Shown: positions 7,874-40,430 of the stretch, piece after piece
Numbering within the stretch: the first letter of the stretch is position 1
Layout: each line of letters begins with the position of its first letter
Position numbers and translations under genes: made by a program
Source of the DNA: an archaeon
Lineage (GTDB): Archaea; Nanobdellota; Nanobdellia; Woesearchaeales; JBDRAZ01
Direction of reading: 5' to 3'
Length of the DNA stretch: 64,000 nucleotides
NCBI GenBank assembly: GCA_043823195.1
Contig: JBDRAZ010000055.1
Location: 3,780-67,779 of the forward strand
Notes under the pieces: model-generated
What the model was told of the DNA's origin: nothing
The model's database searches: none
Seen by the model: only the letters and a program-made list of their open reading frames with translations

Positions 7874-7895
7874 TAGTATTGCCAAATTATCAGCT

Positions 7896-9430: not shown

Positions 9431-10725
9431 TGCTGTATCCTTTTTGATTCCTTCAAAATGAGCCTGAAAAGCCGTTCAGCAAATTTCCTTTCAAGGCCTG
9501 ATTTTTTAACGGCTTTGAGGATTGCCTCCTCCCTTGACCTGTCGTGTATGGGCATCTCTGCCTGCCGCTTCATTTCTGCTATATCGTTGCACAGCCCGAA
9601 CCGTTCAGTAAGGATCCTTATCAGCTCGGCATCAAGGGCATCAATGTGAGACCTTAATGATTTCAGGCCACTTGCTGACTTCAGTGCCTTCTGCGCCTCA
9701 AGCCGGTCAGCAATTACCAGCGCTGCCATGGACTCAACAACCGGCACAACCCTTGGGCAGATGCACGGATCATGGCGGCCCCCAATGCTGATCGTGATAT
9801 CATTGCCGTCACTGTCAATTGTCCTTTGTTCCTTTCCAATGGATGAGGGCGGCTTAACTGCAACTCGGGCTACCAGCTCCTGCCCGGTTGAGATTCCGCC
9901 AAGGACGCCGCCTGCGTTGTTTGACATGAAACCCTTGCTTGTAAGCTCATCATTGCAGACAGACCCCGGCATAGTCGCCGCCCTGAACCCGGCACCGATC
10001 TCAAAGCCCTTTGTTGCCCCAATTGACATGATTGCTTTTGCGAGGTCTGCATCGAGCTTGTCAAAGACCGGGTCGCCAAGGCCGGCCGGAAGATTCTTAA
10101 TCCTTACCTCAACGATGCCGCCGACAGAGTCGCCGTGCAACTTGGCTTCCAGGATCTTTCTCTCCATGGCCTTTGCTGCCTTTTTGTCAGGGCAGCGGAC
10201 TGGGTTGCGCTCAATTTCCTCAGGATCAAATTCCTTCGCCCTTATGCCGCCAATCTCCAGGGTGTATGCAAGGATCGTTATGCCCTCTTTTTGCAGGATC
10301 TTTTTTGCAACCGCCCCTGCGGCAACACGCCCGACGGTTTCCCGTCCAGATGACCTTCCCCCTCCACGGTAGTCGTATATCCCGTATTTTTTCAGGAACG
10401 CAAATGCTGCGTGGCCCGGGCGGAAAACATCTTTTAGCTTGTCGTAGCTGGACGGATCATGGTCCCTGTTACGCACAATTATGCATATTGGTGTTCCGGT
10501 GGTCTTTCCATCGAATATTCCCGAGAGTATCTCAGGCCGGTCATCTTCTTTTCTCGGAGTAGAGACCCTGCTCTGGCCGGGCTTTCGCCTGTCAAGCTCG
10601 CGCTGGATATCCTGCTCTGAGATAGCAAGCCCGGGCCTGACACCATCTATAACTACGCCGAGCGCCGCCCCATGGCTTTCTCCGAATGTCGTAATCCTGA
10701 ACTGCCTTCCGAATGTGCTTGTCAT
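9427..10725 (-). CDS. aroC: chorismate synthase with a C-terminal AroQ-type chorismate mutase domain (bifunctional fusion)
   Basis: The N-terminal ~345 aa carry the chorismate synthase signatures (GESHGxALGVVIDG…, …GGRHDPCICPRVVPVVESMAALV). The C-terminal ~85 aa 'LRSHIDALDAELIRILTERFGLCNDIAEMKRQAEMPIHDRSREEAILKAV…' match the AroQ pattern (R..ID..D..l..Ll.eR….vae.K…g.pi.D..RE..il). Confidence 0.8.
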   Translation of the reverse strand: MTSTFGRQFRITTFGESHGAALGVVIDGVRPGLAISEQDIQRELDRRKPGQSRVSTPRKEDDRPEILSGIFDGKTTGTPICIIVRNRDHDPSSYDKLKDVFRPGHAAFAFLKKYGIYDYRGGGRSSGRETVGRVAAGAVAKKILQKEGITILAYTLEIGGIRAKEFDPEEIERNPVRCPDKKAAKAMERKILEAKLHGDSVGGIVEVRIKNLPAGLGDPVFDKLDADLAKAIMSIGATKGFEIGAGFRAATMPGSVCNDELTSKGFMSNNAGGVLGGISTGQELVARVAVKPPSSIGKEQRTIDSDGNDITISIGGRHDPCICPRVVPVVESMAALVIADRLEAQKALKSASGLKSLRSHIDALDAELIRILTERFGLCNDIAEMKRQAEMPIHDRSREEAILKAVKKSGLERKFAERLFRLILKESKRIQQ

Positions 10726-11222
10726 TTTCCTGCCACCTGCTTTGCAGCCTGTGCCTTTGTAAGTCCGGACACATCAACGGTTACATCAGCAATACCCTCA
10801 TACACGGGCTCCCGCTCTGCAAGCAATCGCTCAAAAGAGCCCCGGGGATCATTCCCGTCAAAAAATGCCGGCATCCCCTTTGCCATGATCCGCCTGTAAA
10901 GCGTATCGGAATCGACCTTTAAATAAATTACCCTTGCCATTGATTTCAGGGCAAGGCCGTTGTCGACCGGTGTTCCGCCGCCGGTTGAGAGGACCACATT
11001 TTCACCTGATATGGAGTTTAATGCGCTTTTTTCACAGTTTCTAAAGTATTTTTTATCTTTTTTCATGTATATTTGCCTACAGCTGAGCGATTCCCCTTCC
11101 GCTGCTTCGTACCTGTCTTCAATAACCCTGTCAAGGTCAATGAATCTCATGCCGCGGATTTTTGCAAGTTCTTTTCCTATGCTCGTCTTTCCGCATCCCT
11201 TGAAACCGATGAGTGCAATCAT
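10722..11222 (-). CDS. aroK: shikimate kinase
   Basis: P-loop 'MIALIGFKGCGKTSIGKELA'. Length 166 aa. Operon context. Confidence 0.8.
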   Translation of the reverse strand: MIALIGFKGCGKTSIGKELAKIRGMRFIDLDRVIEDRYEAAEGESLSCRQIYMKKDKKYFRNCEKSALNSISGENVVLSTGGGTPVDNGLALKSMARVIYLKVDSDTLYRRIMAKGMPAFFDGNDPRGSFERLLAEREPVYEGIADVTVDVSGLTKAQAAKQVAGK

Positions 11223-12481
11223 TGTGAGAAACCCGCCCCCAGCGAGGCCATGTCTTTTATGTAGCCGGGATATGTAACGCCAACTGAATCTGCAGTGTCG
11301 ATCTCAGTAATGCCGCCGGCCATCATTCCTGCGAGGGAGAGCGCCATGACTATCCTGTGATCGCTGTAGCCATGAACACTGCAGCCGGTCAGGCTGCTCT
11401 TTTTTATTATGAGGCCGTCCGGGCGTTCCTTTATGTCTGCACCCATCCTGGCAAGTTCAGATGCCATTGCCGCAATCCTGTCTGTCTCCTTGATCCGGGC
11501 ATGAGACACGTTCTTCAGTATTGTCTTTCCTTTTGCAAAGGTTCCAACAACAGCCAGTGCGGGCAGTGCATCGGGTGTGTCATTAAGGTCCAGCTCAGTG
11601 CCAGTCAGCTCGCCCCCCTTAACGCGGATGCCGCGTGCTGTTTCGGTGATGTCTGCGCCCATGGACCTAAGCATGCCTATTACCGCCTTGTCACCTTGGG
11701 CATCATCCATATCAAGACCCTTTAGCGTGATATCTGAATCTGTAATGGCCGCTGCACAGAGTGGGAATGTTGCCGACGAGAAGTCGGCCGGCACCCGCTC
11801 TTTAAAGCCTTTGTATTCCTGGTTGCCATATACATGAAATTCACTGAACGCACGATTCTCATACCTGATTCCCTGCCTGTCAAGCCAGCGCAGGGTCATT
11901 CCCACATAGGGCTTCTCATGAAGGTCTCTGACAGCAATATGGGTGTCATTCTCGGCTAGCGGACAGCTGATGAGAAGGCTTGAGAGGTACTGAGAGGTTA
12001 TGCCGTCAACTGTTGTTACGCCACCAGCCATCCTGCCCCTGACGGATATTGGGCAGCTGCCGTTGCCGCGGATTGATCTTGCAGCCGCACCCAGGTCATT
12101 CAATGAGTTGATAAGCGGCTGCATGGGGCGCTTCCTGATGGACTCATCACCGTCAAAGATGATTTCCCGGTCGCCCAGTGCTGCCACAGACGCGACTATC
12201 CGCAGCGTGGTTCCGCTGTTCCCAACATCAATGCGGTTTTGGCTTGGCCTTGGAACTCCTGCAAATCCCCTGACCTTCCAGGATTTATTTTCTTCTATGT
12301 CGGCGCCGAGTGCCCGGCATGCATCCCTTGCTGAAATGGCATCTGCAGAGTCAAGCGGATTGAGGATCTCGGATGTGCCGCCTGCGAGAGATGCCAAGAC
12401 AACTGCCCTGATTGTATGGGACTTTGAGGCCGGTATCTCGATTGTGCCATTAAGGCCCGATTGTCTTACCTTGAGTTTCAT
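11219..12481 (-). CDS. aroA: 3-phosphoshikimate 1-carboxyvinyltransferase (EPSP synthase)
   Basis: 420 aa. 'MKLKVRQSGLNGTIEIPASKSHTIRAVVLASLA' is the EPSPS N-terminal signature. Confidence 0.9.
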   Translation of the reverse strand: MKLKVRQSGLNGTIEIPASKSHTIRAVVLASLAGGTSEILNPLDSADAISARDACRALGADIEENKSWKVRGFAGVPRPSQNRIDVGNSGTTLRIVASVAALGDREIIFDGDESIRKRPMQPLINSLNDLGAAARSIRGNGSCPISVRGRMAGGVTTVDGITSQYLSSLLISCPLAENDTHIAVRDLHEKPYVGMTLRWLDRQGIRYENRAFSEFHVYGNQEYKGFKERVPADFSSATFPLCAAAITDSDITLKGLDMDDAQGDKAVIGMLRSMGADITETARGIRVKGGELTGTELDLNDTPDALPALAVVGTFAKGKTILKNVSHARIKETDRIAAMASELARMGADIKERPDGLIIKKSSLTGCSVHGYSDHRIVMALSLAGMMAGGITEIDTADSVGVTYPGYIKDMASLGAGFSQ

Positions 12482-13878
12482 TTTAACGCCTCCATGGCAA
12501 TGCTTTCCATGATGCCTGCGTCCGGCTTTTTTCCTGTCCAGAGCCTAAACCCTGCGGCCCCCTGATAGGCCAGCATCTTTATTCCGGAAATCGCCATGTT
12601 GCCCCGCTTTTCGGCATCCCTTATGAGGCGGGTCTTCATGGGATTGAACACTATATCCATGACTATTGCCCTCTTAAGCTTCTGCTCGTCAATGGGTGTT
12701 AGTTTGTCCGGACCCATGCCAACTGAGGTCGTGTTGACTATTATGTCGGGGTCATCGATCATGCCGCTTTTGCAGCCCAGCTCCCCGGCCAGGGCATCTG
12801 CTTTTTCTTTGGTCCGGTTATAGATGCTCAGTTCTGCCCCCGCCTGGACGAGGCCATAGGCTACAGCCCTTGCTGCGCCGCCTGCACCCAGAACAAGGAT
12901 TTTTTTTCCGCGGACCCTGGTCCGCTCCCTTAATGCAGCCACTGCACCAGTACCGTCTGTGTTGTAGCCTATAAAGCCGCGGTCATTAACAACGGTGTTG
13001 ACTGCGCCAATCTTTCCTGCGGTTTCGTCAACCGCATCTAGGTGCTTCATAACAGCAATCTTGTGGGGGATCGTGACATTGAACCCCCTCATGCAGATTT
13101 GCCGTGCAAATGCAATGAAATCCCCGAGGTCATCGACCTGGAAAGGGATGTATACATAATTCAGCCCCATATCCACAAACATCTTGTTGTGCATCAGGTA
13201 TGAGACTGAGTGCGCAACCGGGTTGCCAATCAGCCCCACTAGCTGCGTTGATGCGTCAAGCCCGCCTGCCCTATAGATGCCCCTGAGCTCATATGCCGGT
13301 ATCTGGCCCGGGGCAGACTCTTTTTCAGGAGCAAGTGATGCATATGTCAGGATGGAATTGAACCTCCTGTAGAGTATGCGGCTGACAAGCCCCTTTTGCC
13401 CCATGCAGAGGACAATTCTGTCTTTGTCTGCCGGGAGATTGAGGAGCTTGAGATTGTCGGTGTAACGGTTGGCCGTTGTGGCTATCTTTATTATGTCGGG
13501 CCCAAGAGACGCAATCTTATCATATATCCCTGACAGGTCAGGGGTGGCCCTGAAATTGTGGTAGGATACAATGATCTTTGTCCTGCGGCCGAGGAATTCT
13601 TTTATGGCATCTTTGCCAAGGTCAAGGTCAAGGTCAATGTAGTCTGCACCCAGATCAAGGGCGCGCTTAAGGATGGAAAGCCTTTTTTCATCCTTAACCC
13701 TGCCGCCCCGGAAGGTAACAATGACCGGTGAAAAGAGCGACATCAGGCGCTCAAGCGCCCTGCTGTCAACAGAGTCCAGGCAGTCCAGGCGTAACTCAAT
13801 AATGTCAGCATCCCTTGCTAGCGCAATGTCCCGCTCTGCCTCTGGTGCTGTTCTTGCCGTGATCGGTATGCAGATCAT
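12478..13878 (-). CDS. aroDE: bifunctional 3-dehydroquinate dehydratase (type I) / shikimate dehydrogenase
   Basis: The N-terminal half 'MICIPITARTAPEAERDIALARDADIIELRLD' is type-I DHQase. The C-terminal half carries the shikimate-DH substrate motif and the Rossmann fold (…ILVLGAGGAARAVAYGL…). Confidence 0.85.
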   Translation of the reverse strand: MICIPITARTAPEAERDIALARDADIIELRLDCLDSVDSRALERLMSLFSPVIVTFRGGRVKDEKRLSILKRALDLGADYIDLDLDLGKDAIKEFLGRRTKIIVSYHNFRATPDLSGIYDKIASLGPDIIKIATTANRYTDNLKLLNLPADKDRIVLCMGQKGLVSRILYRRFNSILTYASLAPEKESAPGQIPAYELRGIYRAGGLDASTQLVGLIGNPVAHSVSYLMHNKMFVDMGLNYVYIPFQVDDLGDFIAFARQICMRGFNVTIPHKIAVMKHLDAVDETAGKIGAVNTVVNDRGFIGYNTDGTGAVAALRERTRVRGKKILVLGAGGAARAVAYGLVQAGAELSIYNRTKEKADALAGELGCKSGMIDDPDIIVNTTSVGMGPDKLTPIDEQKLKRAIVMDIVFNPMKTRLIRDAEKRGNMAISGIKMLAYQGAAGFRLWTGKKPDAGIMESIAMEALK

Positions 13879-14924
13879 TGTTCCCCCAGGACTTTTCTTA
13901 ATACATCCTCTGGCACCGAATCTGCCACAAAGGCCTTCCCTATCCCGTCGAGCAGCACAAAGACCAGTTTGCCGTGGTGCGCCTTTTTATCATGCTTCAT
14001 GCTCCGGATCAGATCAGATGGCCTCAGGCCCAGTTTCCAGGCGGGCTGTATCTTTTCAATCAGCCTGTTATGCCTTTTAAGTTCAGCTTCAGAGAGATGA
14101 CCCAGCTCTGCAGACAGCTTTGCGGCAATCAACATGCCTTTGGCCACGGCCGCCCCGTGAGGTACTGCGTAGCTGCTGAGAGATTCGATTGCATGGCCAA
14201 AGGTGTGCCCGTAGTTGACAAGCCTCCTGATGCCTGCTTCCTTTTCGTCCTCCTCCACTATCCAGGCCTTGATCCGCACAGATGCAAGAATTGCGTCTTC
14301 CAGGCGTTCTTTTGCCAGAACCCTGTCAATGTTGGACTCGAGGTCCTTAAAGAAATCCCTGTCCCGGATAATTGCGTGCTTTACTAGCTCTACCATGCCG
14401 TTTCTGAACTCTGTTTCAGGCAACGTAGCCAGGGTTTCGGTGTCAATGAGGACTGCCTTTGGCTGGTGAAATGCACCAATGAGATTTTTGCCGTCCTTGG
14501 TATCCACGCCAACCTTTCCGCCAACGCTGCTGTCTACCATTGCCAGGAGTGTCGTTGGAACCTGAATGAAATCAATGCCGCGCATATAGGCAGATGCCAC
14601 AAATCCGGCGACATCACCGACCACTCCGCCGCCCAGGGCAATTATGAGTGAGCGCCGGTCAGCACCCTGAGCGTGCAGCATGTCGATGAGACCTGAAAAT
14701 GTGTCAAGGGTCTTGTGCTTTTCGCCCGCAGGAAAGCTCAGAAGGTGCGCCCGGTTCCGTTTCTGCACCTCGGCCAGCAGTTGCACACCATAGAGTTTCT
14801 TAACAACAGAATCAGTGATAATGAAACAGCTGCTGCAGTTGCCCAGCTGTACAGGGATGCCTATCCTGCTGCCGACAATAATATCATAAGAACTGTCGGC
14901 CTTTTTATGAAGCCTAACCCTCAT
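13875..14924 (-). CDS. aroB: 3-dehydroquinate synthase
   Basis: Nucleotide- and metal-binding motifs are present (…GGGVVGDVAGFVASAYMRGIDFIQVPTTLLAMVDSSVGGK…, …HTFGHAIE…). Confidence 0.9.
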   Translation of the reverse strand: MRVRLHKKADSSYDIIVGSRIGIPVQLGNCSSCFIITDSVVKKLYGVQLLAEVQKRNRAHLLSFPAGEKHKTLDTFSGLIDMLHAQGADRRSLIIALGGGVVGDVAGFVASAYMRGIDFIQVPTTLLAMVDSSVGGKVGVDTKDGKNLIGAFHQPKAVLIDTETLATLPETEFRNGMVELVKHAIIRDRDFFKDLESNIDRVLAKERLEDAILASVRIKAWIVEEDEKEAGIRRLVNYGHTFGHAIESLSSYAVPHGAAVAKGMLIAAKLSAELGHLSEAELKRHNRLIEKIQPAWKLGLRPSDLIRSMKHDKKAHHGKLVFVLLDGIGKAFVADSVPEDVLRKVLGEQ

Positions 14925-15534
14925 CTTCCCTTAAATGCTCATCGCAGTTAAAAATGTTCTGTTTGGCTGTAGTCCCGTCAATCTCAATCACTGTCAGCGA
15001 GCCGTTTTTGAATTTATGGCTGCTCAGTTTACTGTTAACCGGCGTTTTCATGAGGTTGGCGATAATCATCCTCAGGGAGCCGCCATGACCGACGATTACA
15101 ATGCTGCCCTTCTTGTGATCTGAAAACACCCTGTCCAGCCCACGCTGAACACGGCCATACAGCTTCAGGTAGCTTTCGCCTTGCGGCGGGGGAACATTGG
15201 CCTTATCCCTTTCACGCTCCTCCCACTCCCGGGCAAATCTCTGCCTAATCTCGGTGCGGGTCAGGCCCTCAAATGCCCCGTAGTTTATCTCGTTGAACTC
15301 AGCAAGATGATTAACCTTCAGGTTATGGGGCCCGGCAATAATCTCGGCAGTCACAATGGCCCTTCTGAGCGCGCTTGAATATACTGCACTAATCTGCTTG
15401 TTCCCTAATCGCATAGCCAGCCTTTCTGCCTGTGAAACACCTGTGCTGTTGAGTTCGGTGTCTACTGTGCCCTGCATCCGCTGCTCAGTGTTCCAGTCGG
15501 TTTCACCATGCCTTACAAGATACAGCGTCAGCAT
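14914..15534 (-). CDS. histidine-phosphatase superfamily protein (phosphoglycerate-mutase-like)
   Basis: The '[10 protein letters not shown]' catalytic RHG motif is at the N-terminus and a second His sits in 'IVGHGGSLR'. Embedded in the aro operon. Confidence 0.6.
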
Positions 15535-16544
15535 ATCTTCCGCCCCACCGCCCCTGCAACTGGCCTCAGCTCAGCCATAAGCCTAGAGAAGCGCTCTGTG
15601 CTAATTGTCTGGTCTGCATCAGTCACTGCGTTTTCCGGATCTGGATGAACCTCAATAATAAGCCCGTCTGCCCCGGCTGCGACGGCTGCCTTGCTCATTG
15701 GAGCAACGAGGCTCCATTTGCCTGTGCCGTGGCTGGGGTCTACAACTACCGGAAGATGGCTAAGTTCCTTAATGGCCGGCACTGCTGCAAGGTCAAGCGT
15801 ATTCCTGGTGTGTGTCTCAAATGTCCTTACACCCCTCTCACAGAGTATTACATCATGGTTGCCCTCTGCGATTATGTATTCGGCAGCAAGGAGGAATTCC
15901 TTGTATGTTGCACACATTCCGCGCTTAAGGAGAACGGGTTTCTTGATCTTTCCGACTGCCTTGAGCAGCTCAAAGTTCTGCATGTTCCTTGTCCCGATCT
16001 GCAGGATATCGGCGTAGCTGGCAACAAGCTCAACATCTCGGGTGTCCATAACCTCGGTAACAATCAGGAGCCCGGTCTTCTCCCTGGCCTCTGCCAGGTG
16101 CTTCAGCCCCTCTTCCCCAGGACCCTGGAAATCGTGCGGCGAGGTCCTGGGCTTAAACGCGCCGCCCCTCAGGATCTTTGCACCTGCTGCCTTTACTGCC
16201 TCTGCAGTCTTAAGTATCAGATCCCTGCCCTCAACCGTACATGGGCCAGCCATTATGACGATGCCGTTTCCGCCTATTGAGACATCACCGACCCTGACAA
16301 CCGTGTTTTCCTTTTTGAATTCCCTGCTGACAAGCTTGTACGGCTTGAGAACAGGCATTACCTTCTCCACCCCCGAAAGGACTGCGAGGCTTTCCACCTG
16401 AAGGACCCTCTCATCACCGATGACTGCAATAACGGTGCGTTCTGTCCCATACAGCGGGACGGGTTTGAGCTTGGCGTTTTCGATCTTTTCAATTACATGC
16501 TTAACCTGTGCCTTTTCAGCACCCCTCTTCATAACAACTATCAT
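15528..16544 (-). CDS. 3-deoxy-7-phosphoheptulonate (DAHP) synthase, type I-beta / KDO8PS-like, with an N-terminal regulatory extension
   Basis: The core '…[42 protein letters not shown]…[11 protein letters not shown]…' matches DAHPS I-beta. It is preceded by an ~90-aa extra N-terminal domain as in Thermotoga-type enzymes. Confidence 0.85.
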
Positions 16545-16846
16545 CTTTTACCTCCCACATATTTTCCGTTTAGTTCAACTGCATTCATTATCTCGTTAAA
16601 ACTCGGGTTTTTATTGAGCGTATATACCTTATCGAGAGCATCCAGCGTAGCAAGCGCGCCCTTTTTCATTATCATCCGGTCGACAAAATGGCCGTAGCTG
16701 CCCATAAGGAGGAGCGCATTCGTGTTGATTTTGAGATAGCCTTCGTTATTCAGGATCCTGAGAAGTTCCTTGGAATCCATGTTGGCATCTATATGTTTGC
16801 CTTGCCGGTGCTCTTCCATCATTTCCTTGAGCTGGATGCCGTTCAT
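16541..16846 (-). CDS. hypothetical protein, first gene of the aro operon
   Basis: 101-aa ORF in the track. Its stop overlaps the DAHPS start. No family recognised. Confidence 0.35.
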
Positions 16847-17189
16847 TGTAATATGTTAAAGTTTTTTAGATGCTCGGGCAGATTTTGAAAACAAAATCTA
16901 GCCTTTAGAACCAAAAGTAATAGCTGAAGCTAACAGAACAAGACTGCTTAGGGGTTAGCTTTGCTGTCATAATGGGAAGAAGGGTGTCAGTGGTATATAA
17001 AGGTTTTGGTTTTGTTGCAATTTTTTTCGATATTGAAAAAAATAGAAACCTATTTGAATTCGGGCCTTCAACGGGGACAATGAATAGGCAGTTATAGACG
17101 ACATCCCGCGCCGTTCTGTGTTCCTCGGGTATTGATTAACTACCCATAAATAGTAACATTTATATACTGATTGATGTGCAATAGCTACC

Positions 17190-17777
17190 ATGAAACAAGA
17201 TAAGGCACCGGAGCCCATCTCAGCAGAAGCATCTGAAGCTGTCAGAAGTTGGTATATGCGAAAAGGGGGCCCGATTATCCAATATCTCTCAGGTCGTTTC
17301 CCGGGTGTTGATCCCGAGGCTGTGCTGCAGGATACGGCCATAAGGGTTGCTCAAAAATACCATACACTCCAAGACACCGCCCTGATGGACACGTGGGCGT
17401 ACAGGATAGCCATTAACAGAGCAAGAGAGGTTGCCAGAAATGACAACAGGAGGCGGCACGTATCTCTTGAATCGGTATGCGATGCTGACACCCCCGAACT
17501 GGTCTCGTGGAGCCGCGCCGACAGGGAGCTGGACATAAGAATGCTGACTGTGGCTGTTGATGCGGTCCTTTGGGATGTTCCCGACCAGAGAGAAGTCGTT
17601 GATCTTATGATCCAAGGCTACAGCTACCGGGATATTTCAGATCAGCTGGGAATTCCGGTGACTACAGTCAAGGCAAGGATTTGGCACTGCAGAAATAGGC
17701 TGGCCAGGGATCTGGACGGTGCTGCCAGGGAGGCGGCGGCGCAGTATTTTCCCCAATTCATGAATAATTATGGCTGA
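17190..17777 (+). CDS. ECF-subfamily sigma-70-like protein (sigma-70 regions 2 and 4)
   Basis: Region 2 'AVLQDTAIRVAQKYHTLQDTALMDTWAYRIAINRAREVARNDNRRR' fits the ECF pattern (LxQDTFl…W…W…IAxN….R.rrR). Region 4 HTH is 'QREVVDLMIQGYSYRDISDQLGIPVTTVKARIWHCRNRLARDL'. Confidence 0.7.
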   Translation: MKQDKAPEPISAEASEAVRSWYMRKGGPIIQYLSGRFPGVDPEAVLQDTAIRVAQKYHTLQDTALMDTWAYRIAINRAREVARNDNRRRHVSLESVCDADTPELVSWSRADRELDIRMLTVAVDAVLWDVPDQREVVDLMIQGYSYRDISDQLGIPVTTVKARIWHCRNRLARDLDGAAREAAAQYFPQFMNNYG

Positions 17778-17950: not shown

Positions 17951-19009
17951 TCATGATGGGAGTCTGGTTTCCGTCGCATATAGGGGGTGGCTTGGCACTA
18001 CCCAGTATGTTGGGGCTTCCCTTGCGCAGAGGGTTCGCCTCTTGAAGTCATCAAGGTCCGTTGTCTCTGATCCGCCGACATCCACTTCTCTTATGCCTGC
18101 TTTTCGCATGTTGCCGAAGGCATGCATGTAGGCATAAGAAGATATCCCGTTGCTGTAATCGCGGTTTTTGTGGAGGTGACGAAGCGCAAAGCAGGAATAG
18201 AGCCCGGCAGCTGTCTTGCCTGTCCGCTCACCTATAAAGAGCATTGCCGGCTTCTTTTGGAGGTAGCCAATGTATGCGAAATAATCGTGCCCGTTTTTTC
18301 CTGCTGGAAGATTTTCTACAACACCCATGTAGTCCTCCCAGGAGGAGCCGATGTTTTTGTTCCTGCTCTTCAGCCAGCGAAAATGGCTCCTGATAATGAA
18401 CTCTGCATCCGACAGCTGTCCGGGTGTGTATTCCCGGATATCGAGGCGATTTGCAGCTGACTGGAACCGTTCAAACTGCCGTATGTTCCTTCTGAAATGC
18501 TTTCCGAACGCTGCTGAGATGTCAACAACCCGGTGGTTGAAGGTCTCATCCTCTGCAAATGCGCCGGGGTGCCACTTCTGGCTGCATCCTGCAGTAACTG
18601 TATGATAGCCCAACCGGTTCAGGTGGGTCCTCTGCTGTGATGTAAGATGCCTTATATAGCAAGTTAATCCGGGCATTTTGTCCTGGATTGTCTTAACAAA
18701 GCGATCGACAGTCAGAAGACTTCCAACTGGTGCAATTATGTGCATGTGGACAGTGTCATCAGATTCCCTTGCAAAAAAACCCAGCGCAAACCTTGTGGAA
18801 CCATCATCATAGATGAGTCCCAGCGGGTGTTTTCTGCTCATGCCCCTTTCGTTGTAGCCATTGGCATAGATTATATAGGACAGGAAGCTAACCCCAAACC
18901 GGCCGTCTTTGAATGTGTTTATCAGGTAGCTGTCTTCTGAAGCAATGGGCCTAACATCCCGGCACAGCTCCATAACCGCAGATTCCATCTGCTCCCTTGC
19001 AGTAACCAT
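17951..19009 (-). CDS. hypothetical protein
   Basis: 352-aa ORF. No recognisable catalytic motif. Confidence 0.35.
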   Translation of the reverse strand: MVTAREQMESAVMELCRDVRPIASEDSYLINTFKDGRFGVSFLSYIIYANGYNERGMSRKHPLGLIYDDGSTRFALGFFARESDDTVHMHIIAPVGSLLTVDRFVKTIQDKMPGLTCYIRHLTSQQRTHLNRLGYHTVTAGCSQKWHPGAFAEDETFNHRVVDISAAFGKHFRRNIRQFERFQSAANRLDIREYTPGQLSDAEFIIRSHFRWLKSRNKNIGSSWEDYMGVVENLPAGKNGHDYFAYIGYLQKKPAMLFIGERTGKTAAGLYSCFALRHLHKNRDYSNGISSYAYMHAFGNMRKAGIREVDVGGSETTDLDDFKRRTLCAREAPTYWVVPSHPLYATETRLPS

Positions 19010-20644: not shown

Positions 20645-21415
20645 TCAGGTTGCGGCTTTCAGCTCCTTTAGATACTTTTCCATTTCGGCGTCATTTCTAA
20701 TGCGGTCAACCACGGCCGACCCCACAATTGCGCCGTCTGCACCTGCTGCCAAGACAGACCTAACGTGCTCTGGCCTTGATATTCCGAACCCCACGCAGAT
20801 TGGCAGGACAGTATGCTTCCTTGCCCTCCGGATAAGCTCAAGCGCGCTCTTATGAAGCGAGGCCTTTGCACCTGTTACGCCCAGCCTTGAGACCAGATAG
20901 GCAAAGCCCGTTGTCTTCTCAAGGATCATCTTCATCCTTGCCTCATCTGTAAGCGGGCTTATAATGAAGACGGTATCAACCCCCGCCTTTTCCGCTGCTT
21001 TCACGTATTCGTCAGATTCCTCTACTGGCAGATCTGCAACGAGGACCGAGTCAACGCCTGCTTTTGCTGCATCTGAATAGAACATGCCAATCCCCCTCTG
21101 AAAGATGAGATTAGCATAGACCAAAAGGCCAATGGGGATCTGCGTAAACCTGCGCACTTCAGCAATGAACCGGAAGGCAAGGTCTGTGTTTATGCCTCCT
21201 TGCAGGGCAACCCTGTCCGCTTCCTGGATTGTGGGGCCGTCTGCAATGGGGTCAGAGAATGCAAGGCCCAGCTCAAGCATGTCCGCGCTCCTGGCAAGAG
21301 TCTTTACAACCTCCAGGCTTTTGCCGTAGTCAGGATAGCCAATTACTGTAAATGGAATCAGTGCTCCGCGGCCGCTTTTTTTGAGATTCTGAAATGTTTT
21401 CTTGATTCGTTTCAT
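20645..21415 (-). CDS. trpA: tryptophan synthase alpha chain
   Basis: 'MKRIKKTFQNLKKSGRGALIPFTVIGYPDY…GLAFSDPIADGPTIQ…' TrpA signature. The start is set at the internal Met (ATG at 21413-21415). The track ORF extends further but would overlap trpB. Confidence 0.9.
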   Translation of the reverse strand: MKRIKKTFQNLKKSGRGALIPFTVIGYPDYGKSLEVVKTLARSADMLELGLAFSDPIADGPTIQEADRVALQGGINTDLAFRFIAEVRRFTQIPIGLLVYANLIFQRGIGMFYSDAAKAGVDSVLVADLPVEESDEYVKAAEKAGVDTVFIISPLTDEARMKMILEKTTGFAYLVSRLGVTGAKASLHKSALELIRRARKHTVLPICVGFGISRPEHVRSVLAAGADGAIVGSAVVDRIRNDAEMEKYLKELKAAT

Positions 21416-21426
21416 GGGATCACCTT

Positions 21427-21443
21427 TACTTACATTGTAAGTA
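21427..21443. promoter_or_regulatory. single copy of the 17-bp palindrome TACTTACATTGTAAGTA filling the trpB-trpA intergenic spacer
   Basis: Exact match to the repeat unit of the 40.2-kb array. Half-sites TACTTACA / TGTAAGTA are perfectly inverted. It lies between the trpB stop (21444) and the trpA start (21415). Confidence 0.4.
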
Positions 21444-22616
21444 TCACATCTTTTTGCCAAGCTGAGCTGCGACGTGGAACATGTCCTTGTCACCCCGCCC
21501 CGAAAGATTGATAATAACCAGGTCGTTCCTGCCGAATTTTGCCTCAATTGCATAGGCAACCGCGTGGGCGGATTCAAGCGCGGGAATGATTCCCTCCTCT
21601 GTGCTCAGGATCTTCAGGGCATCCAGGGCCTGTTTGTCTGTAGCATATGTGTATTCTGCCCGCCTGAGGTCGCGAAGCATTGCGTGCTCAGGGCCAACAG
21701 CTGAATAATCAAGCCCTGCTGAGACCGAGTGGGTGTTGTATATCTGGCCGAACTTGTCCTGCAGCACATAGGTCAGGGTCCCGTGAAGTATGCCGGGCCT
21801 TCCGAGTTTTTTGTCTGCAAAGCGCGCGGCATGCTTTCCCGAAGATATGCCGAGCCCCCCTGCCTCAACGCCGATAAGCCTCACGCCCTTGTCATGAAGA
21901 AAGCCCCTGAAAATGCCGATGGCATTGGAACCGCCGCCCACGCAGGCAATAACTGCTGCCGGGAGCCGGCCCTCTGCAGCAAGAATCTGTTCCCTTGCCT
22001 CTTTGCCAATCATCGACTGAAAATGTGCAACCATCGTCGGATAAGGATGCGGGCCAAGAACCGACCCCAGGAGGTAGTGGGTGTCCTGCACGTTTGTTGT
22101 CCAGTCCCTCAGTGCCTCGTTTATTGCGTCCTTCAGTGTTTTTGAGCCTGATTCAACAGGTGTCACCTTTGCACCCAGAAGCTCCATCCTGAATACGTTC
22201 AGCTTCTGGCGTTCCATGTCAACACTGCCCATGTAGACCTCGCACTTGAGACCGAGCTTGGCGGCGGCCGTTGCAGTTGCAACACCGTGCTGGCCTGCGC
22301 CGGTCTCTGCTATGATGCGCTTTTTTCCCATGTATTTTGCGAGAAGGGCCTGGCCGAGCGCGTTGTTGATCTTATGTGCGCCTGTATGCGCAAGGTCTTC
22401 GCGCTTCAGGTAAATCCTGTAGCCGAGCCTGTCGCTGAGCCTTTTGCAGTGTGTCAGCTGGGTAGGCCGGCCCGCGTACCCGGAAAGAAGCGCAGAGTAT
22501 TCCATCTGGAACTGCTTGTCCTTCCTGCATCTGCCAAACGCAGATTCCAGTTCCTCAAGTGCCGGCATCAGGGTTTCTGGAACAAATTTTCCCCCGTATT
22601 TTCCAAACTGCTTCAT
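21444..22616 (-). CDS. trpB: tryptophan synthase beta chain
   Basis: 390 aa. PLP-lysine region '[20 protein letters not shown]' and 'GGGSNAIG'. Confidence 0.95.
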
Positions 22617-23965
22617 TTTATCACCTTAAAAAAACGCTTCATCTTTGCCTTGTCCTTTATTCCGGGACTTTGCTCAATTCCGCTGGCAACATCAACAGCA
22701 AATGGTCTGTATTTGAGGCAGCCTGAGACGTTGTCCGGATTCAGGCCCCCGGAAAGGATATACTTCCGATCAAATGTTTCAAGAAGCCCGTGGTCAAAGG
22801 ATTTGCCTGTGCCGCCATACTGGCTGCCGTGATGCGTATCAAGCAGGATCAGGCAGCTGTAGTCCTCTGCAGGTTCCAGGCTGTCTGTTATATGCAATGC
22901 CTTTATGACAGCCAGGCCAGCTGCCTGAAGCTCTGCTGCGTAGCCTGGCGACTCATTTCCTGAGAGCTGCACATAGTCCAGGAACGTTGCATCTTTTACA
23001 TTACAGGGGCATTCATCTACAAAGACGCCGACCATCGCCGGGCAGCGGATTCCGTATTTTGCCCGGACTGCAGAGATAATTTTCTTTGCCTTTGCCGGAT
23101 CAATGTACCGCGGGCTCTTTTTGTAAAAAATGAAGCCCAGGTAGTCTGCGCCAAGCTCTGCTGCATAAAGTGCGTCCTCTTTTCGTGTTAGGCCGCAAAC
23201 CTTTATGCGCGGATCCGGCCGGATCGCATCATAGATTTCCCTGACCTTGTTTCTTGTGCTGCCGGCAAGGAGGCTGGTCCCGACCAGAAATGCATCTGCG
23301 GAATCCCTCAGCCTCATGACATCATCCCTTCCCAGGATTCCGCTTTCTGAAACGATAATCCTGCCTTCGGGAATCTTTGCCGAGAGCCTAAGCGTCGTGC
23401 CAAGATCAATTTCGAGCGTATCAAGGTTGCGGTTGTTTATGCCGATTATCCCTGCTTTTGTCCTTAGCACCCTATGCAGATCCTCTTCGCTGTGGACCTC
23501 AACCAGGCAGGCCATGCCCAGATCATGTGAAATAGCAAGGAACCGCGACAGGGTCCTTAAGTCAAGCATTGCTGCGATGAGAAGCACTGCATCTGCCCCG
23601 TAATGCCTTGATTCATATAGCTGGTATTCGTCAATTATAAAGTCCTTTCTTAATACGGGCAGGGAAGTCAGTTTCCTGACCTCGCTTATGTGCCTAATGT
23701 CCCCTGAGAAGAATTTCTTATCTGTGAGAACAGAGATGGCCGATGCATAGCGGTCGTAGATGGATATGATCTTCGGGATGCTGAACTCCCTCACAATTGT
23801 CCCTTTGCTGGGCGATGCCTTTTTCAGCTCGGCAATCAAGGCGCGTTTCCTTATTGCCCCCGGGAAATCGCGAAGCGGAAGGGCAAGCCGCATCTGAGAG
23901 GGCGGCAGTGTTTTCTTCCTTTCCTTAACCTCCTTTTCCTTGTTTTGCCTGACCTTATCCAGCAT
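22613..23965 (-). CDS. trpCF: bifunctional indole-3-glycerol-phosphate synthase / phosphoribosylanthranilate isomerase (TrpC-TrpF fusion)
   Basis: The N-terminal ~255 aa carry the IGPS motifs (…[13 protein letters not shown]…, …[12 protein letters not shown]…). The C-terminal ~195 aa '[34 protein letters not shown]…' are PRAI. Confidence 0.85.
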
Positions 23966-24965
23966 TTGTGAACTCCTTCAGTTTTTCGAGTTTTTCAAGA
24001 GCCAGTCCGTCGTCAATTGATTTTGCAGCCATTGCAACCCCCCCCCGGAAATCGTGCGCCTTTTCAGCTGCAACCAGCGCCGCGCCGGAATTTGCGAGAA
24101 CAATGTCTCTCTTCGGACCGTTTATTTCCCCCTTCAGTATGCCAAGGATTGTCTCTGCGTTTTCTTCAGGTGTCCCCCCACGGAGATCCGTAAGCGGAGC
24201 TGCCCTGAGGCCAAGGTCTTCTGCGGTGATTGTATATGCTTTAACCTGGCCGTCCCTGTATTCCGCAACTGCTGTCGGTGCGAGTGCAACCTCATCCATT
24301 CCGCTGCCGTGGACAACGAGCGCATGCCTGCAGCCGAGTTTCCCCAGCACCTCTGCAAGCGGCCGGATTAGCTTTTCATCAAAAACGCCCATCAGTTCAT
24401 ACTCTGCCCCTGCCGGATTTGTGAGGGGACCCAGAATGTTGAAGATGGTCCTTATGCCCACCTCTTTTCTCGGGCCGATAGCATACCTCATGGCCGGATG
24501 GAACTTCGGGGCGAACATGAAACCGATGCCAACTTCATTTATGCAGGCTTCAACCTGGCCAGGCTCAAGACCTATATTGACACCGAGGGCCGAAAGAACA
24601 TCAGCTGAGCCGCTTTTTGAACTCACCCCCTTGTTGCCGTGCTTGGCTACACCAATGCCGCAGCCCGCAGCAACAAATGCTGAGGCCGTAGAGATGTTGA
24701 ATGTCCCTGAAGAGTCCCCGCCGGTTCCAACCACATCCAGGAGCGGCCCGGCCGGAGAGATTTTTGCTGCCTTTTCCCTCATTACCCTTGCGCACGCTGT
24801 AATCTCATCAATCGTCTCTCCCTTAAGCCTCAGTGCAACAAGGAATGCCGCAATCTGTGCGTCTGTTGCAGAACCGCCCATGATCTGGTTCATGACATCC
24901 CCGGCATCCTGCATAGAGAGATCATCTGAATCGACCAGCTTTGCAATTGCCTCTTTAATTTCCAT
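23955..24965 (-). CDS. trpD: anthranilate phosphoribosyltransferase
   Basis: '…DVVGTGGDSSGTFNISTASAFVAAGCG…' TrpD signature. The start is set at the internal Met (MEIKEAIAKL, ATG at 24963-24965). Confidence 0.9.
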   Translation of the reverse strand: MEIKEAIAKLVDSDDLSMQDAGDVMNQIMGGSATDAQIAAFLVALRLKGETIDEITACARVMREKAAKISPAGPLLDVVGTGGDSSGTFNISTASAFVAAGCGIGVAKHGNKGVSSKSGSADVLSALGVNIGLEPGQVEACINEVGIGFMFAPKFHPAMRYAIGPRKEVGIRTIFNILGPLTNPAGAEYELMGVFDEKLIRPLAEVLGKLGCRHALVVHGSGMDEVALAPTAVAEYRDGQVKAYTITAEDLGLRAAPLTDLRGGTPEENAETILGILKGEINGPKRDIVLANSGAALVAAEKAHDFRGGVAMAAKSIDDGLALEKLEKLKEFTNAG

Positions 24966-25539
24966 TTGGGCACCTCCGGATAAGATTCTCAATGATTATG
25001 CCACCAACCGGGGTAAGAATGCTCTCCGGATGGAACTGGACGCCGCATACCGCGAATTTTTTATGCTGGACAGCCATGACAATCTTGTCTTCGGTTTCAG
25101 CTGTGATATCCAGGCAGCCGGGAATCTTCAGGCCGGAGAGCGAATGATACCGTCCTGCCTGAAATGGACTGCCTAACCCCGAGAAAATGCCTTTTGCATT
25201 ATGAAATATCCTGGACGGCTTGCCGTGGATTATTGTGGGTGCATGACCCACTACACCCCCAAAGGCCTCTACAATTGCCTGGTGGCCCAGGCAAACGCCA
25301 AAAAGCGGGATTTTGTCATGGTACTTACGAATCAGCGGAATTGAGTTTCCCGCGTCCTTGGGCGAAGACGGGCCGGGAGAGATCACAAGAAGATCGGGCC
25401 TGAACCCCTCAATTGCGTCCCTGTAGGCCTCCATGCTAATGTTGTTCCGGTAAACCCTGATGCTGCACCCCCTTTTTTCGAACTCATCAACAAGGTTAAA
25501 TGTGAAGGAGTCAAAGTTATCCACAAAGAGGACTTTCAT
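24955..25539 (-). CDS. trpG: anthranilate synthase component II (glutamine amidotransferase)
   Basis: 'MKVLFVDNFDSFTFNLV…' with the GATase triad Cys in 'GVCLGHQAI'. 194 aa. Confidence 0.9.
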   Translation of the reverse strand: MKVLFVDNFDSFTFNLVDEFEKRGCSIRVYRNNISMEAYRDAIEGFRPDLLVISPGPSSPKDAGNSIPLIRKYHDKIPLFGVCLGHQAIVEAFGGVVGHAPTIIHGKPSRIFHNAKGIFSGLGSPFQAGRYHSLSGLKIPGCLDITAETEDKIVMAVQHKKFAVCGVQFHPESILTPVGGIIIENLIRRCPNGN

Positions 25540-27131: not shown

Positions 27132-27311
27132 CTGGTCGATTAGATAGTGTCGTGACTAGAAAGAGTCTCAGATGGTTAACGCCACGGACAATCACTTTTC
27201 ATTTTATGTTTATTAGAAATGTCCGGGATTATTTAAAGGTTTTGATTGGCCCTGTCACCCTCCTCGAGTAGGACAAGAAAGTATAAAAAGTAGTAAAGCC
27301 CGCCTTTTACC

Positions 27312-40405: not shown

Positions 40406-40430
40406 TGCGCTGTGTTGGGGAACACACTGA

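What the first reader, a model, noticed from the sequence alone, without database searches (positions are those of the whole stretch)
17190..17777. Bacterial-type ECF sigma factor gene in an otherwise archaeal gene context
The 195-aa product has clear sigma-70 region 2 (…QDTAIRVAQKYHTLQDTALMDTWAYRIAINRAREVARNDNRRR…) and region 4 HTH.

Archaeal transcription uses TBP/TFB and no sigma factors, and this window itself encodes TBP, MCM and L34e/L14e. The gene is flanked by AT-rich non-coding DNA (16850-17190) and a hypothetical gene.

Possible explanations:
- horizontal acquisition from bacteria, perhaps repurposed as a conventional HTH regulator;
- a family of archaeal region-4-like proteins, with which the HTH remnant at 40431 would agree;
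- contig chimerism.
Basis: partly seen in the sequence, partly recalled or inferred. Interest (0 to 1): 0.55.

Follow-up and report, generated by a model that had tools for sequence, protein, structure and literature searches.

The report
Bacterial-type sigma factor in a DPANN archaeon
An archaeon of the Woesearchaeota (DPANN) group carries an intact, long-resident copy of a bacterial-style ECF sigma factor gene driven by an archaeal promoter; such genes have already been reported in this group, so this is a very divergent new example of a known but functionally unexplained oddity.

Summary
ORF 17190-17777 (+) encodes a 195-aa, two-domain ECF-type sigma-70-family protein. Pfam Sigma70_r4_2 passes its cutoff, Sigma70_r2 falls just short, and TIGR02937 passes by 0.3 bits. 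A confident AlphaFold model matches only ECF sigma factors in the PDB. The contig is archaeal: MCM and TBP are present, and MCM's named relatives are all Woesearchaeota/Nanoarchaeota/DPANN. Chimerism is unlikely. Genes on both sides have Woesearchaeota affinities, the gene's composition is typical of the contig, and it carries the contig's own BRE/TATA promoter (AACATTTATATA, with the TATA box starting 31 nt before the ATG). No protein among about 15 billion is more than about 38% identical. The named nearest hits are bacteria from scattered phyla. No anti-sigma-like neighbour exists. The phenomenon is already published: Castelle et al. 2021 (PMC8204110) report sigma-70 genes 'particularly prevalent in Woesearchaeota', with no anti-sigma factors and no known mechanism. 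My verdict is a new, highly divergent member of a known kind. It is most likely an anciently acquired bacterial gene now used as a stand-alone DNA-binding regulator; that functional part is inference. A side finding may matter more: five Woesearchaeota-type loci carry aromatic-rich leader-peptide ORFs upstream of their aromatic amino-acid operons.

The parts
17190..17777 (+). Gene for a 195-aa ECF-type (group 4) sigma-70-family protein.
   Evidence: ORF. TIGR02937 43.2/42.9 and Pfam r4_2 34.1/25.7. 5,449 homologues. AF2 pLDDT 88.5. Foldseek top 30 are all ECF sigma factors.
17223..17453 (+). Sigma2 domain (residues 12-88, regions 2.1-2.4). It is the more divergent half. Q47 and D48 are kept, but the otherwise D/E position equivalent to sigma70 D403 is Ala44. 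W69, R72, I73 and N76 are kept.
   Evidence: Helices H12-36, H42-55 and H63-88. Foldseek 4lup TMt 0.72. Domain score 66.0 bits against 84.2 +/- 13.5 for left-out bacterial members, z = -1.35. Conserved-column table. Core-binding residues as listed in 10.1101/2020.09.07.285775.
17454..17507 (+). Low-confidence interdomain linker (residues 89-106). There is no region 3.
   Evidence: pLDDT 54-60 for residues 91-110. The spacing between the conserved sigma2-end and sigma4-start columns is 42 aa against a median of 39 in homologues. No Sigma70_r3 hit.
17508..17747 (+). Sigma4 domain (residues 107-186) with the helix-turn-helix that recognises the -35 element in bacterial ECF sigma factors. It is well conserved.
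   Evidence: Pfam Sigma70_r4_2 above cutoff. pLDDT 85-97. Foldseek 2h27 TMt 0.80, rmsd 1.4. Domain score z = -0.63.
17155..17166 (+). Archaeal BRE/TATA-type promoter AACATTTATATA of the gene. The TATA box starts 31 nt before the ATG, which implies a leaderless or very short-leader mRNA.
   Evidence: The motif occurs 3 times in 64 kb against 0.03 expected, and each copy lies 31-41 nt upstream of a start codon. Other first-in-operon genes show the same geometry. TTTAWATA occurs 10 times against 1.7 expected.
16847..17189 (.). AT-rich divergent promoter spacer shared with the aro operon on the minus strand. It holds the mirror-image promoter AACCTTTATATAC (17005-16993, minus strand) and a 36-bp palindrome at 17014-17049.
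   Evidence: GC 0.37. Inverted repeats I1 and I3. Sequence.

Best explanation
The gene encodes a real, intact ECF-type sigma-70-family protein (sigma2, linker, sigma4) in the genome of a poorly sampled Woesearchaeota (DPANN) archaeon. It is one more example of the sigma-70-family genes already described as prevalent in that group, and a very divergent one.

**Origin (shown or strongly supported).** The gene family is bacterial, so this copy most probably entered the lineage by horizontal transfer. That happened long enough ago for its base composition and codon usage to become host-like and for it to acquire the host's own BRE/TATA promoter with leaderless geometry. No cognate anti-sigma factor is present.

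**Mechanism (inferred).** The host transcribes with an archaeal RNA polymerase plus TBP/TFB. The bacterial docking surfaces for sigma are therefore absent or different. The protein most likely acts as a free-standing, sequence-specific DNA-binding transcription regulator that works through its well-conserved sigma4 helix-turn-helix. It probably does not act as a polymerase-bound promoter-specificity subunit. Two observations fit relaxed constraint on core-polymerase binding: sigma2 is conserved less well than sigma4, and the near-universal acidic residue at the sigma70-D403-equivalent core-binding position is Ala.
For: **Identity.**, as set out under the observation check.

**Host lineage.** The MCM's named homologues at 64-71% identity are all Woesearchaeota, Nanoarchaeota or DPANN. 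The aro-operon gene order DAHPS, histidine phosphatase, DHQS is shared with Nanoarchaeota and Woesearchaeota MAGs L009 and L010. The 352-aa neighbour is 53% identical to a Woesearchaeota protein.

**Published precedent.** PMC8204110 reports sigma-70 genes (fam00359) 'particularly prevalent in Woesearchaeota', with mis-binning ruled out, no anti-sigma factors found and the mechanism unclear.

**Bacterial ancestry.**
- The nearest relatives P0003 and P0009 lie in bacterial gene contexts, each with an overlapping downstream gene of 372-379 aa in the position typical of an anti-sigma factor.
- The top hits that carry organism names are from Cyclonatronaceae, Pseudomonadota and Vulcanimicrobiota/Eremiobacterota.

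**Long residence.**
- GC is 0.527 and GC3 0.551, against a contig GC3 of 0.581 +/- 0.034. The codon score has z of about -1 and ranks 7 of 42.
- The tetranucleotide z is -0.8 to -1.7.
- The native promoter motif occurs 3 times against 0.03 expected.

**Still under constraint.**
- The ORF is intact and keeps 31 of 46 conserved family positions.
- It scores 148.7 bits against a profile of bacterial homologues, compared with 169 +/- 25 for left-out members.

**Sigma2 weaker than sigma4.** z is -1.35 against -0.63. Pfam r2 is below its cutoff while r4_2 is above. Ala44 sits where 104 of 107 homologues have D or E, a position listed as core-binding in sigma70.

**No anti-sigma.** The neighbours have no transmembrane segment, no HxxxCxxC motif and no Pfam, NCBIfam or PDB match. 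Nothing is co-transcribed downstream, since the next gene is convergent.
Against: - Nothing here shows DNA binding, a target site or expression. The functional half of the statement is inference.
- The sigma2 domain is still within the range of the bacterial family (10th percentile), so loss of the sigma function is not demonstrated.
- The mapping of Ala44 onto sigma70 D403 rests on my own alignment by inspection.
- The profile was built from the query's best hits, which flatters the query's score.
Some could be archaeal, and a DPANN-specific sigma clade cannot be excluded.
- The closest MCM is only 71% identical. The gene's 'orphan' status may therefore reflect poor sampling of this branch rather than unusual divergence, and the time of acquisition cannot be dated.
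- No orthologue exists, so dN/dS cannot be computed.
Confidence: 0.6

Rival explanations
1. The protein is a true initiation factor for the archaeal RNA polymerase. It docks on the Rpo1 clamp coiled-coil, which is the homologue of the bacterial beta-prime clamp helices, and either redirects the enzyme to a special promoter class or competes with TFB/TFE.
For: Both domains are intact and within family range. Q47 and D48, the equivalents of sigma70 Q406 and E407, are retained. The gene family is retained across many Woesearchaeota according to PMC8204110, which suggests a selected function.
Against: From general knowledge, archaeal initiation depends on TBP/TFB, and a TBP gene is present on this contig. 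The sigma4 docking site, the bacterial beta-flap tip helix, has no established archaeal counterpart. ECF-type -35/-10 motifs are not enriched: 3 found against 1.7 expected, and 25 of 100 shuffles did as well. The D403-equivalent core-binding residue is Ala.
Confidence: 0.1
2. The gene is a neutral passenger: a horizontally acquired gene with no current function that has not yet decayed.
For: No relative above about 38% identity exists among about 15 billion proteins. It is absent from the equivalent position in relatives L009 and L010. No partner anti-sigma is present. Pfam r2 is below its cutoff.
Against: The 195-codon ORF is intact although composition has fully ameliorated, which implies long residence. 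It keeps 31 of 46 family-conserved positions, and the predicted fold is confident. It has a perfect copy of the host's extended promoter motif at the canonical distance.
Confidence: 0.15
3. The protein is a cross-domain effector. The DPANN cell delivers the sigma factor to a bacterial partner or host, where it redirects that organism's RNA polymerase, as phage-encoded ECF-like sigma factors do.
For: The protein has everything needed to work with a bacterial core enzyme. Phages encode structurally similar ECF-like sigma factors. [quoted passage not shown]
Against: There is no hydrophobic N-terminal or transmembrane segment (maximum KD19 0.87) and no secretion-system neighbour. Known DPANN hosts are archaea (PMC8204110 abstract). 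Similarity to phage sigma factors is no better than to cellular ones. The gene sits among housekeeping biosynthesis operons.
Confidence: 0.05
4. It is an assembly or binning artefact: a bacterial fragment wrongly joined into an archaeal contig.
For: The gene family is bacterial and the source is a MAG. No read-level data were available to me.
Against: Two joins within 1.1 kb would be required, between flanks that both have Woesearchaeota affinity. The composition is typical of the contig. The promoter is the contig's own archaeal motif. No bacterial protein is closer than about 38%, so no donor contig is evident.
Confidence: 0.02

Closest known systems
Bacterial ECF (group 4) sigma factors, for example E. 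coli sigmaE/RpoE (1or7, 6jbq), P. aeruginosa AlgU (6in7, 8z6g), M. tuberculosis SigL/SigH/SigE (6dv9, 5zx2, 9m9e)
   Same: It has the same two-domain sigma2, linker, sigma4 architecture without regions 1.1 and 3. It has the same size, the same conserved motifs (QDT in region 2.2, W-x2-RIA-x-N in regions 2.3/2.4, and the sigma4 HTH), and the same predicted fold.
   Different: It is encoded in an archaeon that lacks the bacterial RNA polymerase. It is driven by a BRE/TATA promoter. It has no adjacent anti-sigma factor and no autoregulatory ECF-type promoter. It is at most about 38% identical to any known member. It reaches no NCBIfam equivalog or subfamily cutoff. Ala replaces the conserved acidic residue in region 2.2.
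Sigma-70-class genes of DPANN archaea (protein family fam00359 of Castelle et al. 2021, PMC8204110)
   Same: The host group is the same (Woesearchaeota). The situation is also the same: a bacterial-type sigma gene on a contig with archaeal markers, no anti-sigma factor, and an unknown mechanism.
   Different: I could not obtain the fam00359 sequences, so sequence-level membership is untested. No archaeal protein was identified among this protein's nearest hits.
Phage-encoded ECF-like sigma factors (BFVD matches such as Agrobacterium phage Atu_ph04 and Salinivibrio phage CW02)
   Same: They have the same fold and size, and they are also sigma genes carried outside a bacterial chromosome.
   Different: Identity is 10-22%, no closer than to cellular sigma factors. 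No viral or mobile-element genes lie nearby, and the gene sits between the aro and trp biosynthesis operons.
Archaeal stand-alone HTH regulators with sigma4/LuxR-type domains (LuxR solos, Tfx; PMC5413776), and the small HTH units at 40431-40901 of this window
   Same: They use a sigma-region-4-like helix-turn-helix in an archaeal cell, which is the activity I infer for this protein.
   Different: Those proteins have only the region-4-like domain, whereas this one also has a complete sigma2 domain. No sequence similarity to the window's small HTH units is detectable.

Membership tests
ECF (group 4) sigma-70 family | Whole-protein match to the sigma70-ECF superfamily model above its curated cutoff | tested here: met
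   TIGR02937 scores 43.2 bits against a cutoff of 42.9, covering model positions 25-163 of 165. This is a marginal pass.
ECF (group 4) sigma-70 family | Sigma4 domain (regions 4.1-4.2, HTH) | tested here: met
   Pfam Sigma70_r4_2 34.1 against 25.7. pLDDT 85-97. Foldseek TM 0.80 to sigmaE region 4, 2h27.
ECF (group 4) sigma-70 family | Sigma2 domain, judged by the Pfam Sigma70_r2 gathering score | tested here: not met
   20.1 bits against a cutoff of 24, with only the C-terminal part of the model aligned (21-70 of 71).
ECF (group 4) sigma-70 family | Sigma2 domain, judged by fold and family profile | tested here: met
   pLDDT is about 95 for residues 11-80. Foldseek TM 0.72, rmsd 2.2, to sigmaE region 2, 4lup. 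66.0 bits against a sigma2 profile of homologues, at the 10th percentile of left-out members.
ECF (group 4) sigma-70 family | Absence of regions 1.1 and 3 (the minimal two-domain architecture) | tested here: met
   195 aa. No Sigma70_r1 or r3 hits. A short low-confidence linker joins the two domains.
ECF (group 4) sigma-70 family | Conserved core-polymerase-binding residues of region 2.2 (equivalents of sigma70 D403, Q406, E407) | tested here: inconclusive
   Q47 and D48 are retained. The D403 equivalent is Ala44, where 104 of 107 homologues have D or E. The mapping to sigma70 is my own alignment.
ECF (group 4) sigma-70 family | Binds bacterial-type RNA polymerase core and directs promoter-specific initiation | not testable with these tools
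   This needs biochemistry. The host contig encodes TBP, a component of the archaeal initiation machinery.
ECF (group 4) sigma-70 family | Typical but not obligatory: a co-transcribed cognate anti-sigma factor | tested here: not met
   The downstream gene is convergent. The neighbours lack transmembrane segments, a ZAS motif and any Pfam, NCBIfam or PDB match.
ECF (group 4) sigma-70 family | Typical: an autoregulatory ECF-type promoter (GGAAC-N16-19-CGTC class) | tested here: not met
   3 matches against 1.7 expected, and 25 of 100 shuffles reach 3. The one nearby copy has a 19-nt spacer and points away from the gene.
Any named ECF subgroup or equivalog (SigZ, SigM, RpoE, SigW and others) | Score above the subgroup's curated cutoff | tested here: not met
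   The best is PRK12513 at 53.8 bits against a cutoff of 206. All 24 equivalog and subfamily models among the 25 best shown are far below their cutoffs.
DPANN sigma-70 genes (fam00359, PMC8204110) | Encoded in a DPANN (Woesearchaeota) genome, with mis-binning excluded | tested here: met
   MCM on the same contig has only Woesearchaeota, Nanoarchaeota or DPANN named relatives. The flanks are Woesearchaeota-like. The promoter and composition are native.
DPANN sigma-70 genes (fam00359, PMC8204110) | Sequence clusters with the fam00359 proteins | not tested
   The fam00359 sequences were not retrieved. The hits with organism names among the 20 top hits looked up are bacterial, and most hits are unnamed.

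The most novel reading that the evidence does not exclude
The protein has been adapted to work with non-bacterial partners. One version is that it acts as a real promoter-specificity or TFB/TFE-competing factor on the archaeal RNA polymerase, through the conserved clamp coiled-coil. The other is that it is an exported effector that reprograms a bacterial partner's polymerase. Either would be a cross-domain use of a sigma factor with no precedent.
Probability: 0.1. Interest if true: 0.85.

Novelty: new member of a known kind. Interest (0 to 1): 0.35.

Why it matters
Sigma factors are a hallmark of bacterial transcription, and archaea initiate with TBP/TFB. A sigma gene that an archaeon has kept intact, naturalised and placed under its own promoter therefore asks what a sigma fold can do without its polymerase. 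The question is real, but it was already raised for DPANN archaea in 2021.

This locus adds a clean, well-documented case:
- the gene is fully ameliorated;
- it has a canonical leaderless archaeal promoter;
- it has no anti-sigma factor;
- its sigma4 domain is better conserved than its sigma2 domain;
- a core-binding residue is replaced.

It could serve as a test protein for binding assays against archaeal and bacterial polymerases.

The side observation could matter more. Aromatic-rich leader peptides in front of aro operons in five Woesearchaeota-type loci would, if confirmed, be evidence for ribosome-mediated leader-peptide control in archaea.

Tried and rejected
1. **Exact look-up of the window protein in the contig index.** It is not on record, so I had no direct access to the source assembly or its reads.
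2. **First AlphaFold run with a 10-sequence alignment.** pLDDT was 55 and the model was unusable. I repeated it with 108 sequences.
3. **Synteny.** The 352-aa neighbour's orthologue in a Woesearchaeota MAG (L006) has different neighbours. Its adjacent 206-aa protein is unrelated to the sigma protein. Relatives L009 and L010 share the aro operon but have transketolase or GTPase genes where the sigma gene would be. Neither the ancestral state nor the time of insertion could be inferred.
4. **Donor identification.** All hits lie at 27-38% identity and come from scattered phyla, so no donor can be named.
5. **ECF-type promoter search.** No enrichment.
6. **Sigma-70-type promoter, terminator and Rfam scans of 16.5-18.1 kb.** Nothing above chance.
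7. **Paralogy with the small sigma4-like HTH units at 40.4-40.9 kb.** None.
8. **Anti-sigma candidates among the neighbours.** None.
9. **The ECF re-classification paper (PMC7826278).** It does not mention archaea, so it gives no published ECF-group assignment for archaeal members.
10. **Species-representative genome scan.** I spent it on the DAHP synthase anchor. The window's own genome is not in that collection.
11. **Metagenome-contig scan with the sigma profile.** I did not run it, because generic ECF patterns would return an uninformative sample of bacterial ECF sigma factors.
Full report
**1. The observation**

The upstream spacer 16847-17189 has GC 0.37, against 0.517 for the window.

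The profile libraries give a real but borderline signal:
- Pfam Sigma70_r4_2 passes, at 34.1 bits against a cutoff of 25.7.
- Pfam Sigma70_r2 (20.1 against 24) and Sigma70_ECF (20.2 against 21.1) fall just short.
- The NCBIfam superfamily model TIGR02937 passes by 0.3 bits (43.2 against 42.9), aligned almost end to end.
- Every equivalog or subfamily model among the 25 best shown is far below its cutoff.

Stronger evidence removes the doubt:
- An exhaustive phmmer search of 1.84 billion cluster representatives finds 5,449 proteins at E <= 0.001, typically matched over residues about 40-177, which covers both domains.
- The significant full-length PDB sequence matches are ECF sigma factors.
- With a 108-sequence alignment (A2), AlphaFold2 gives a confident model with mean pLDDT 88.5. 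It has helical domains at residues 12-88 and 107-186 joined by a low-confidence linker.
- Foldseek's top 30 PDB matches are all ECF sigma factors. The single domains superpose on sigmaE region 4 bound to -35 DNA (2h27, TM 0.80, rmsd 1.4) and on sigmaE region 2 bound to -10 DNA (4lup, TM 0.72).

So this is a real two-domain, group-4 (ECF-type) member of the sigma-70 family.

**2. The host**

The contig encodes an MCM helicase with the archaeal winged-helix domain and a TBP. All named homologues of that MCM, at 64-71% identity, are annotated Candidatus Woesearchaeota, Nanoarchaeota or DPANN group archaeon.

The gene's own cluster is a singleton that NCBI names 'MAG: RNA polymerase sigma factor [archaeon]', on a 68,929-bp contig.

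The host is therefore a Woesearchaeota-type DPANN archaeon from a poorly sampled branch, since the nearest MCM is only 71% identical.

**3. The neighbourhood**

The gene lies between two biosynthesis blocks on the minus strand.
- **Left block (16846 down to 4683).** A 101-aa unknown protein, DAHP synthase, a histidine-phosphatase-family protein, DHQ synthase, a DHQase/shikimate dehydrogenase fusion, EPSP synthase, shikimate kinase, a chorismate synthase/mutase fusion, prephenate dehydrogenase, prephenate dehydratase, and both PheRS subunits.
- **Right side.** A convergent 352-aa protein of unknown family, a TrmB-family regulator, an EamA transporter, and a complete trp operon.

The gene is transcribed divergently from the aro operon.

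**4. Is it a chimera or a recent arrival?**

Neither is likely.
- The aro operon on the left shares the unusual order DAHPS, histidine phosphatase, DHQS with the two best genome hits, which are Nanoarchaeota and Woesearchaeota MAGs.
- The best homologue of the 352-aa gene on the right, at 53% identity, is from a Woesearchaeota MAG.
- The sigma gene's GC (0.527), GC3 (0.551 against 0.581 +/- 0.034) and codon-usage score (z about -1, rank 7 of 42) are ordinary for the contig.
- The 2-kb windows that cover the gene are closer to the contig's mean tetranucleotide signature than average, z -0.8 to -1.7.

The promoter is the most telling point. First-in-operon genes on this contig carry a TTTAWATA box starting 31-33 nt (41 in one case) before the ATG, which is the geometry of leaderless or short-leader archaeal mRNAs. 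The extended motif AACATTTAWATA occurs three times in 64 kb against 0.03 expected, and no shuffle reached three. Every copy is in front of a gene, and one is 31 nt in front of the sigma gene's ATG.

The gene is thus wired into the archaeal transcription system. Read-level support could not be checked.

**5. Relatives**

No protein among about 15 billion is more than about 38% identical over a full-length match.

The closest relatives whose contexts I examined lie among bacterial genes, and each has an overlapping downstream gene of 372-379 aa in the classical anti-sigma position.

The four of twenty top hits that carry organism names are from Cyclonatronaceae, Pseudomonadota and Vulcanimicrobiota/Eremiobacterota. 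The similarity landscape is flat, so no donor can be named.

The host branch is poorly sampled, so this orphan status may partly be a sampling effect. Relatives L009 and L010 have no sigma-like ORF near their aro operons.

**6. How typical is the protein?**

Against a profile of its 107 best homologues it scores 148.7 bits. Left-out members of that set score 169 +/- 25. It keeps 31 of 46 well-conserved columns, or 37 counting similar residues.

Divergence is concentrated in sigma2 (z -1.35) rather than sigma4 (z -0.63).

The most unusual substitution is Ala44, at a position that is D or E in 104 of 107 homologues. By my alignment this position corresponds to sigma70 D403. That residue is one of the region-2.2 residues (D403, Q406, E407, N409) listed as core-polymerase-binding (10.1101/2020.09.07.285775). 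The Q406 and E407 equivalents, Q47 and D48, are kept.

**7. Partners and targets**

No anti-sigma candidate exists. Nothing is co-transcribed downstream. Neither unknown neighbour has a transmembrane segment, an HxxxCxxC motif, or any Pfam, NCBIfam or PDB match.

ECF-type promoter motifs are at chance level. The window holds no second sigma-like ORF.

**8. What is known**

Castelle et al. [quoted passage not shown] They ruled out mis-binning through co-encoded marker proteins, identified no anti-sigma factors, and left the mechanism 'unclear'.

The present locus reproduces every element of that description in the same archaeal group.

The large ECF re-classification study does not mention archaea (PMC7826278).

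The finding is therefore a new and unusually divergent member of a published phenomenon. It is not a new kind of thing.

**9. Mechanism**

Shown or strongly supported:
- the protein's identity as an ECF-type sigma;
- the archaeal (Woesearchaeota) host;
- native promoter and host-like composition;
- the absence of an anti-sigma factor.

Inferred:
- bacterial origin by old horizontal transfer;
- function as a stand-alone DNA-binding regulator through the well-preserved sigma4 HTH, with weakened constraint on the polymerase-binding surface of sigma2.

Rivals:
- real sigma-like action on archaeal polymerase (about 0.1);
- a neutral relic (about 0.15);
- an effector for a bacterial partner (about 0.05);
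- an assembly artefact (about 0.02).

**10. Side finding**

The divergent aro promoter is a mirror image of the sigma promoter: AACCTTTATATAC on the minus strand at 17005-16993. Exactly 31 nt after the start of its TATA box lies the ATG of a 21-codon ORF, 16970-16905, encoding MTAKLTPKQSCSVSFSYYFWF. Six of its last seven residues are aromatic. A hairpin with a U4GU4 loop follows, ahead of the first aro-operon gene.

All four archaeal loci retrieved with the DAHP synthase anchor have the same arrangement:

| Locus | Peptide |
|---|---|
| L009 | MNILEGINVVLNEFFLDRQFFYFYFW |
| L010 | MMKRIENLMAQIGFAFYRLFSSFRYFFFYFKF |
| L022 | MNTLTCSKLFESELEIFFYRFFGYYFW |
| L046 | MKNIVSILDFISFGFIYFWQ |

Each has a TATA box roughly 31-35 nt upstream of its ATG and a hairpin starting at or just after its stop codon.

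In a screen for at least 5 aromatic residues in any 8-residue window, only 6 of 508 short ORFs upstream of DAHPS in 40 loci qualified, and 4 of those 6 are the archaeal ones. In the downstream control, 2 of 391 qualified.

The trp operon of the window has an analogous 8-codon ORF, MKSDCPWR, 35 nt after the start of the TATA box within an AACCTTTAAATA motif.

Two literature searches found no report of leader-peptide attenuation in archaea. Those searches were not exhaustive.

This looks like ribosome-sensed leader-peptide control of bacterial-type amino-acid operons in DPANN archaea, and it deserves its own follow-up.

**11. Verdict**

- Novelty is 'new member of a known kind'.
- Interest is moderate to low for the sigma gene itself (0.35), because the phenomenon is published and nothing here reveals its function.

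Noticed in passing
window 16905-16970 (-), with promoter at 16993-17005 (-) and hairpin at about 16874-16900; also L009 3936-4016, L010 5802-5900, L022 1816-1899, L046 5834-5896: A short leaderless ORF ending in a cluster of Phe/Tyr/Trp codons lies directly upstream of the aromatic amino-acid (DAHP synthase) operon in the window (MTAKLTPKQSCSVSFSYYFWF) and in all four archaeal relatives fetched. Each has a TATA box roughly 31-35 nt before its ATG and a hairpin with a U-tract at or just after its stop codon. This is a candidate for leader-peptide (ribosome-sensed) control in DPANN archaea. Two literature searches found no archaeal precedent.
   Followed up: partly
window 27176-27202 (-), promoter AACCTTTAAATA at 27229-27240 (-): An 8-codon ORF, MKSDCPWR, with one Trp codon sits at the leaderless position upstream of trpE of the complete trp operon (20645-27131, minus strand). 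It may be a Trp leader peptide, but the evidence is much weaker than for the aro case.
   Followed up: partly
window 40219-40409: Five copies of a near-palindromic site, CCTACATTGTAAGTA, are spaced 31-52 nt apart. TATA-like boxes (40326, 40376) directly precede the last two copies. This looks like an operator array in front of the surface-protein genes.
   Followed up: partly
window 40431-40901 (+); repeat units 40536-40730 and 40731-40925: A tandem 195-bp duplication (80-88% identical) encodes two in-frame copies of a roughly 50-aa Sigma70_r4_2-like HTH: about 18 bits for the second copy alone and 30.6 bits for both together, against a cutoff of 25.7. The first copy has no ATG, GTG or TTG in frame, and the second starts at TTG 40743. 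The units are unrelated in sequence to the ECF-like protein.
   Followed up: partly
window 44877-63998+ (+) and 40856-44863 (+): A giant open reading frame of at least 6,374 codons runs off the end of the window, with only weak Pfam repeat hits in its first 1,500 aa. It is preceded by a 1,335-aa protein whose sequence contains two similar serine-protease-like (subtilisin-type) regions as judged by eye; no Pfam scan was run on that protein. Together they probably form a large cell-surface protein operon.
   Followed up: no
window 4683-16846 (-); L009 and L010: The aromatic pathway is encoded as one long operon with features that I judge, from general knowledge, to be bacterial-type: an SKI-family shikimate kinase, a DAHP synthase with an N-terminal ferredoxin-like domain, and a chorismate synthase/mutase fusion. 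A histidine-phosphatase-family gene is inserted between DAHPS and DHQS, and this order is shared with Nanoarchaeota and Woesearchaeota MAGs. DAHPS is about 60-63% identical to many bacterial enzymes, which suggests an old bacterial origin for the whole block.
   Followed up: partly
window 2590-2601 (+), 4680-4691 (-), 17155-17166 (+): The contig's promoters share an extended BRE/TATA-like motif, AACATTTAWATA (3 copies against 0.03 expected), whose TATA box starts 31-41 nt before the start codon. This implies mostly leaderless or short-leader mRNAs in this organism.
   Followed up: yes
window 17014-17049: A 36-bp AT-rich palindrome (18-nt arms, 83% complementary, no spacer) lies between the two divergent promoters of the aro operon and the sigma-like gene. 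It may be an operator, but it could be chance in AT-rich DNA.
   Followed up: no
window 17951-19009 (-): A 352-aa protein has no Pfam, NCBIfam or PDB match. Only five homologues exist in 5.8 billion clusters. The closest, at 53% identity, is from a Woesearchaeota MAG, and a more distant one sits beside sugar-nucleotide and glycosyltransferase genes.
   Followed up: partly
window 37570-40179 (+): An 869-aa protein is interrupted by an intein with a LAGLIDADG homing-endonuclease domain. I did not test the identity of the host protein, which by eye looks like a HerA/FtsK-like ATPase.
   Followed up: no
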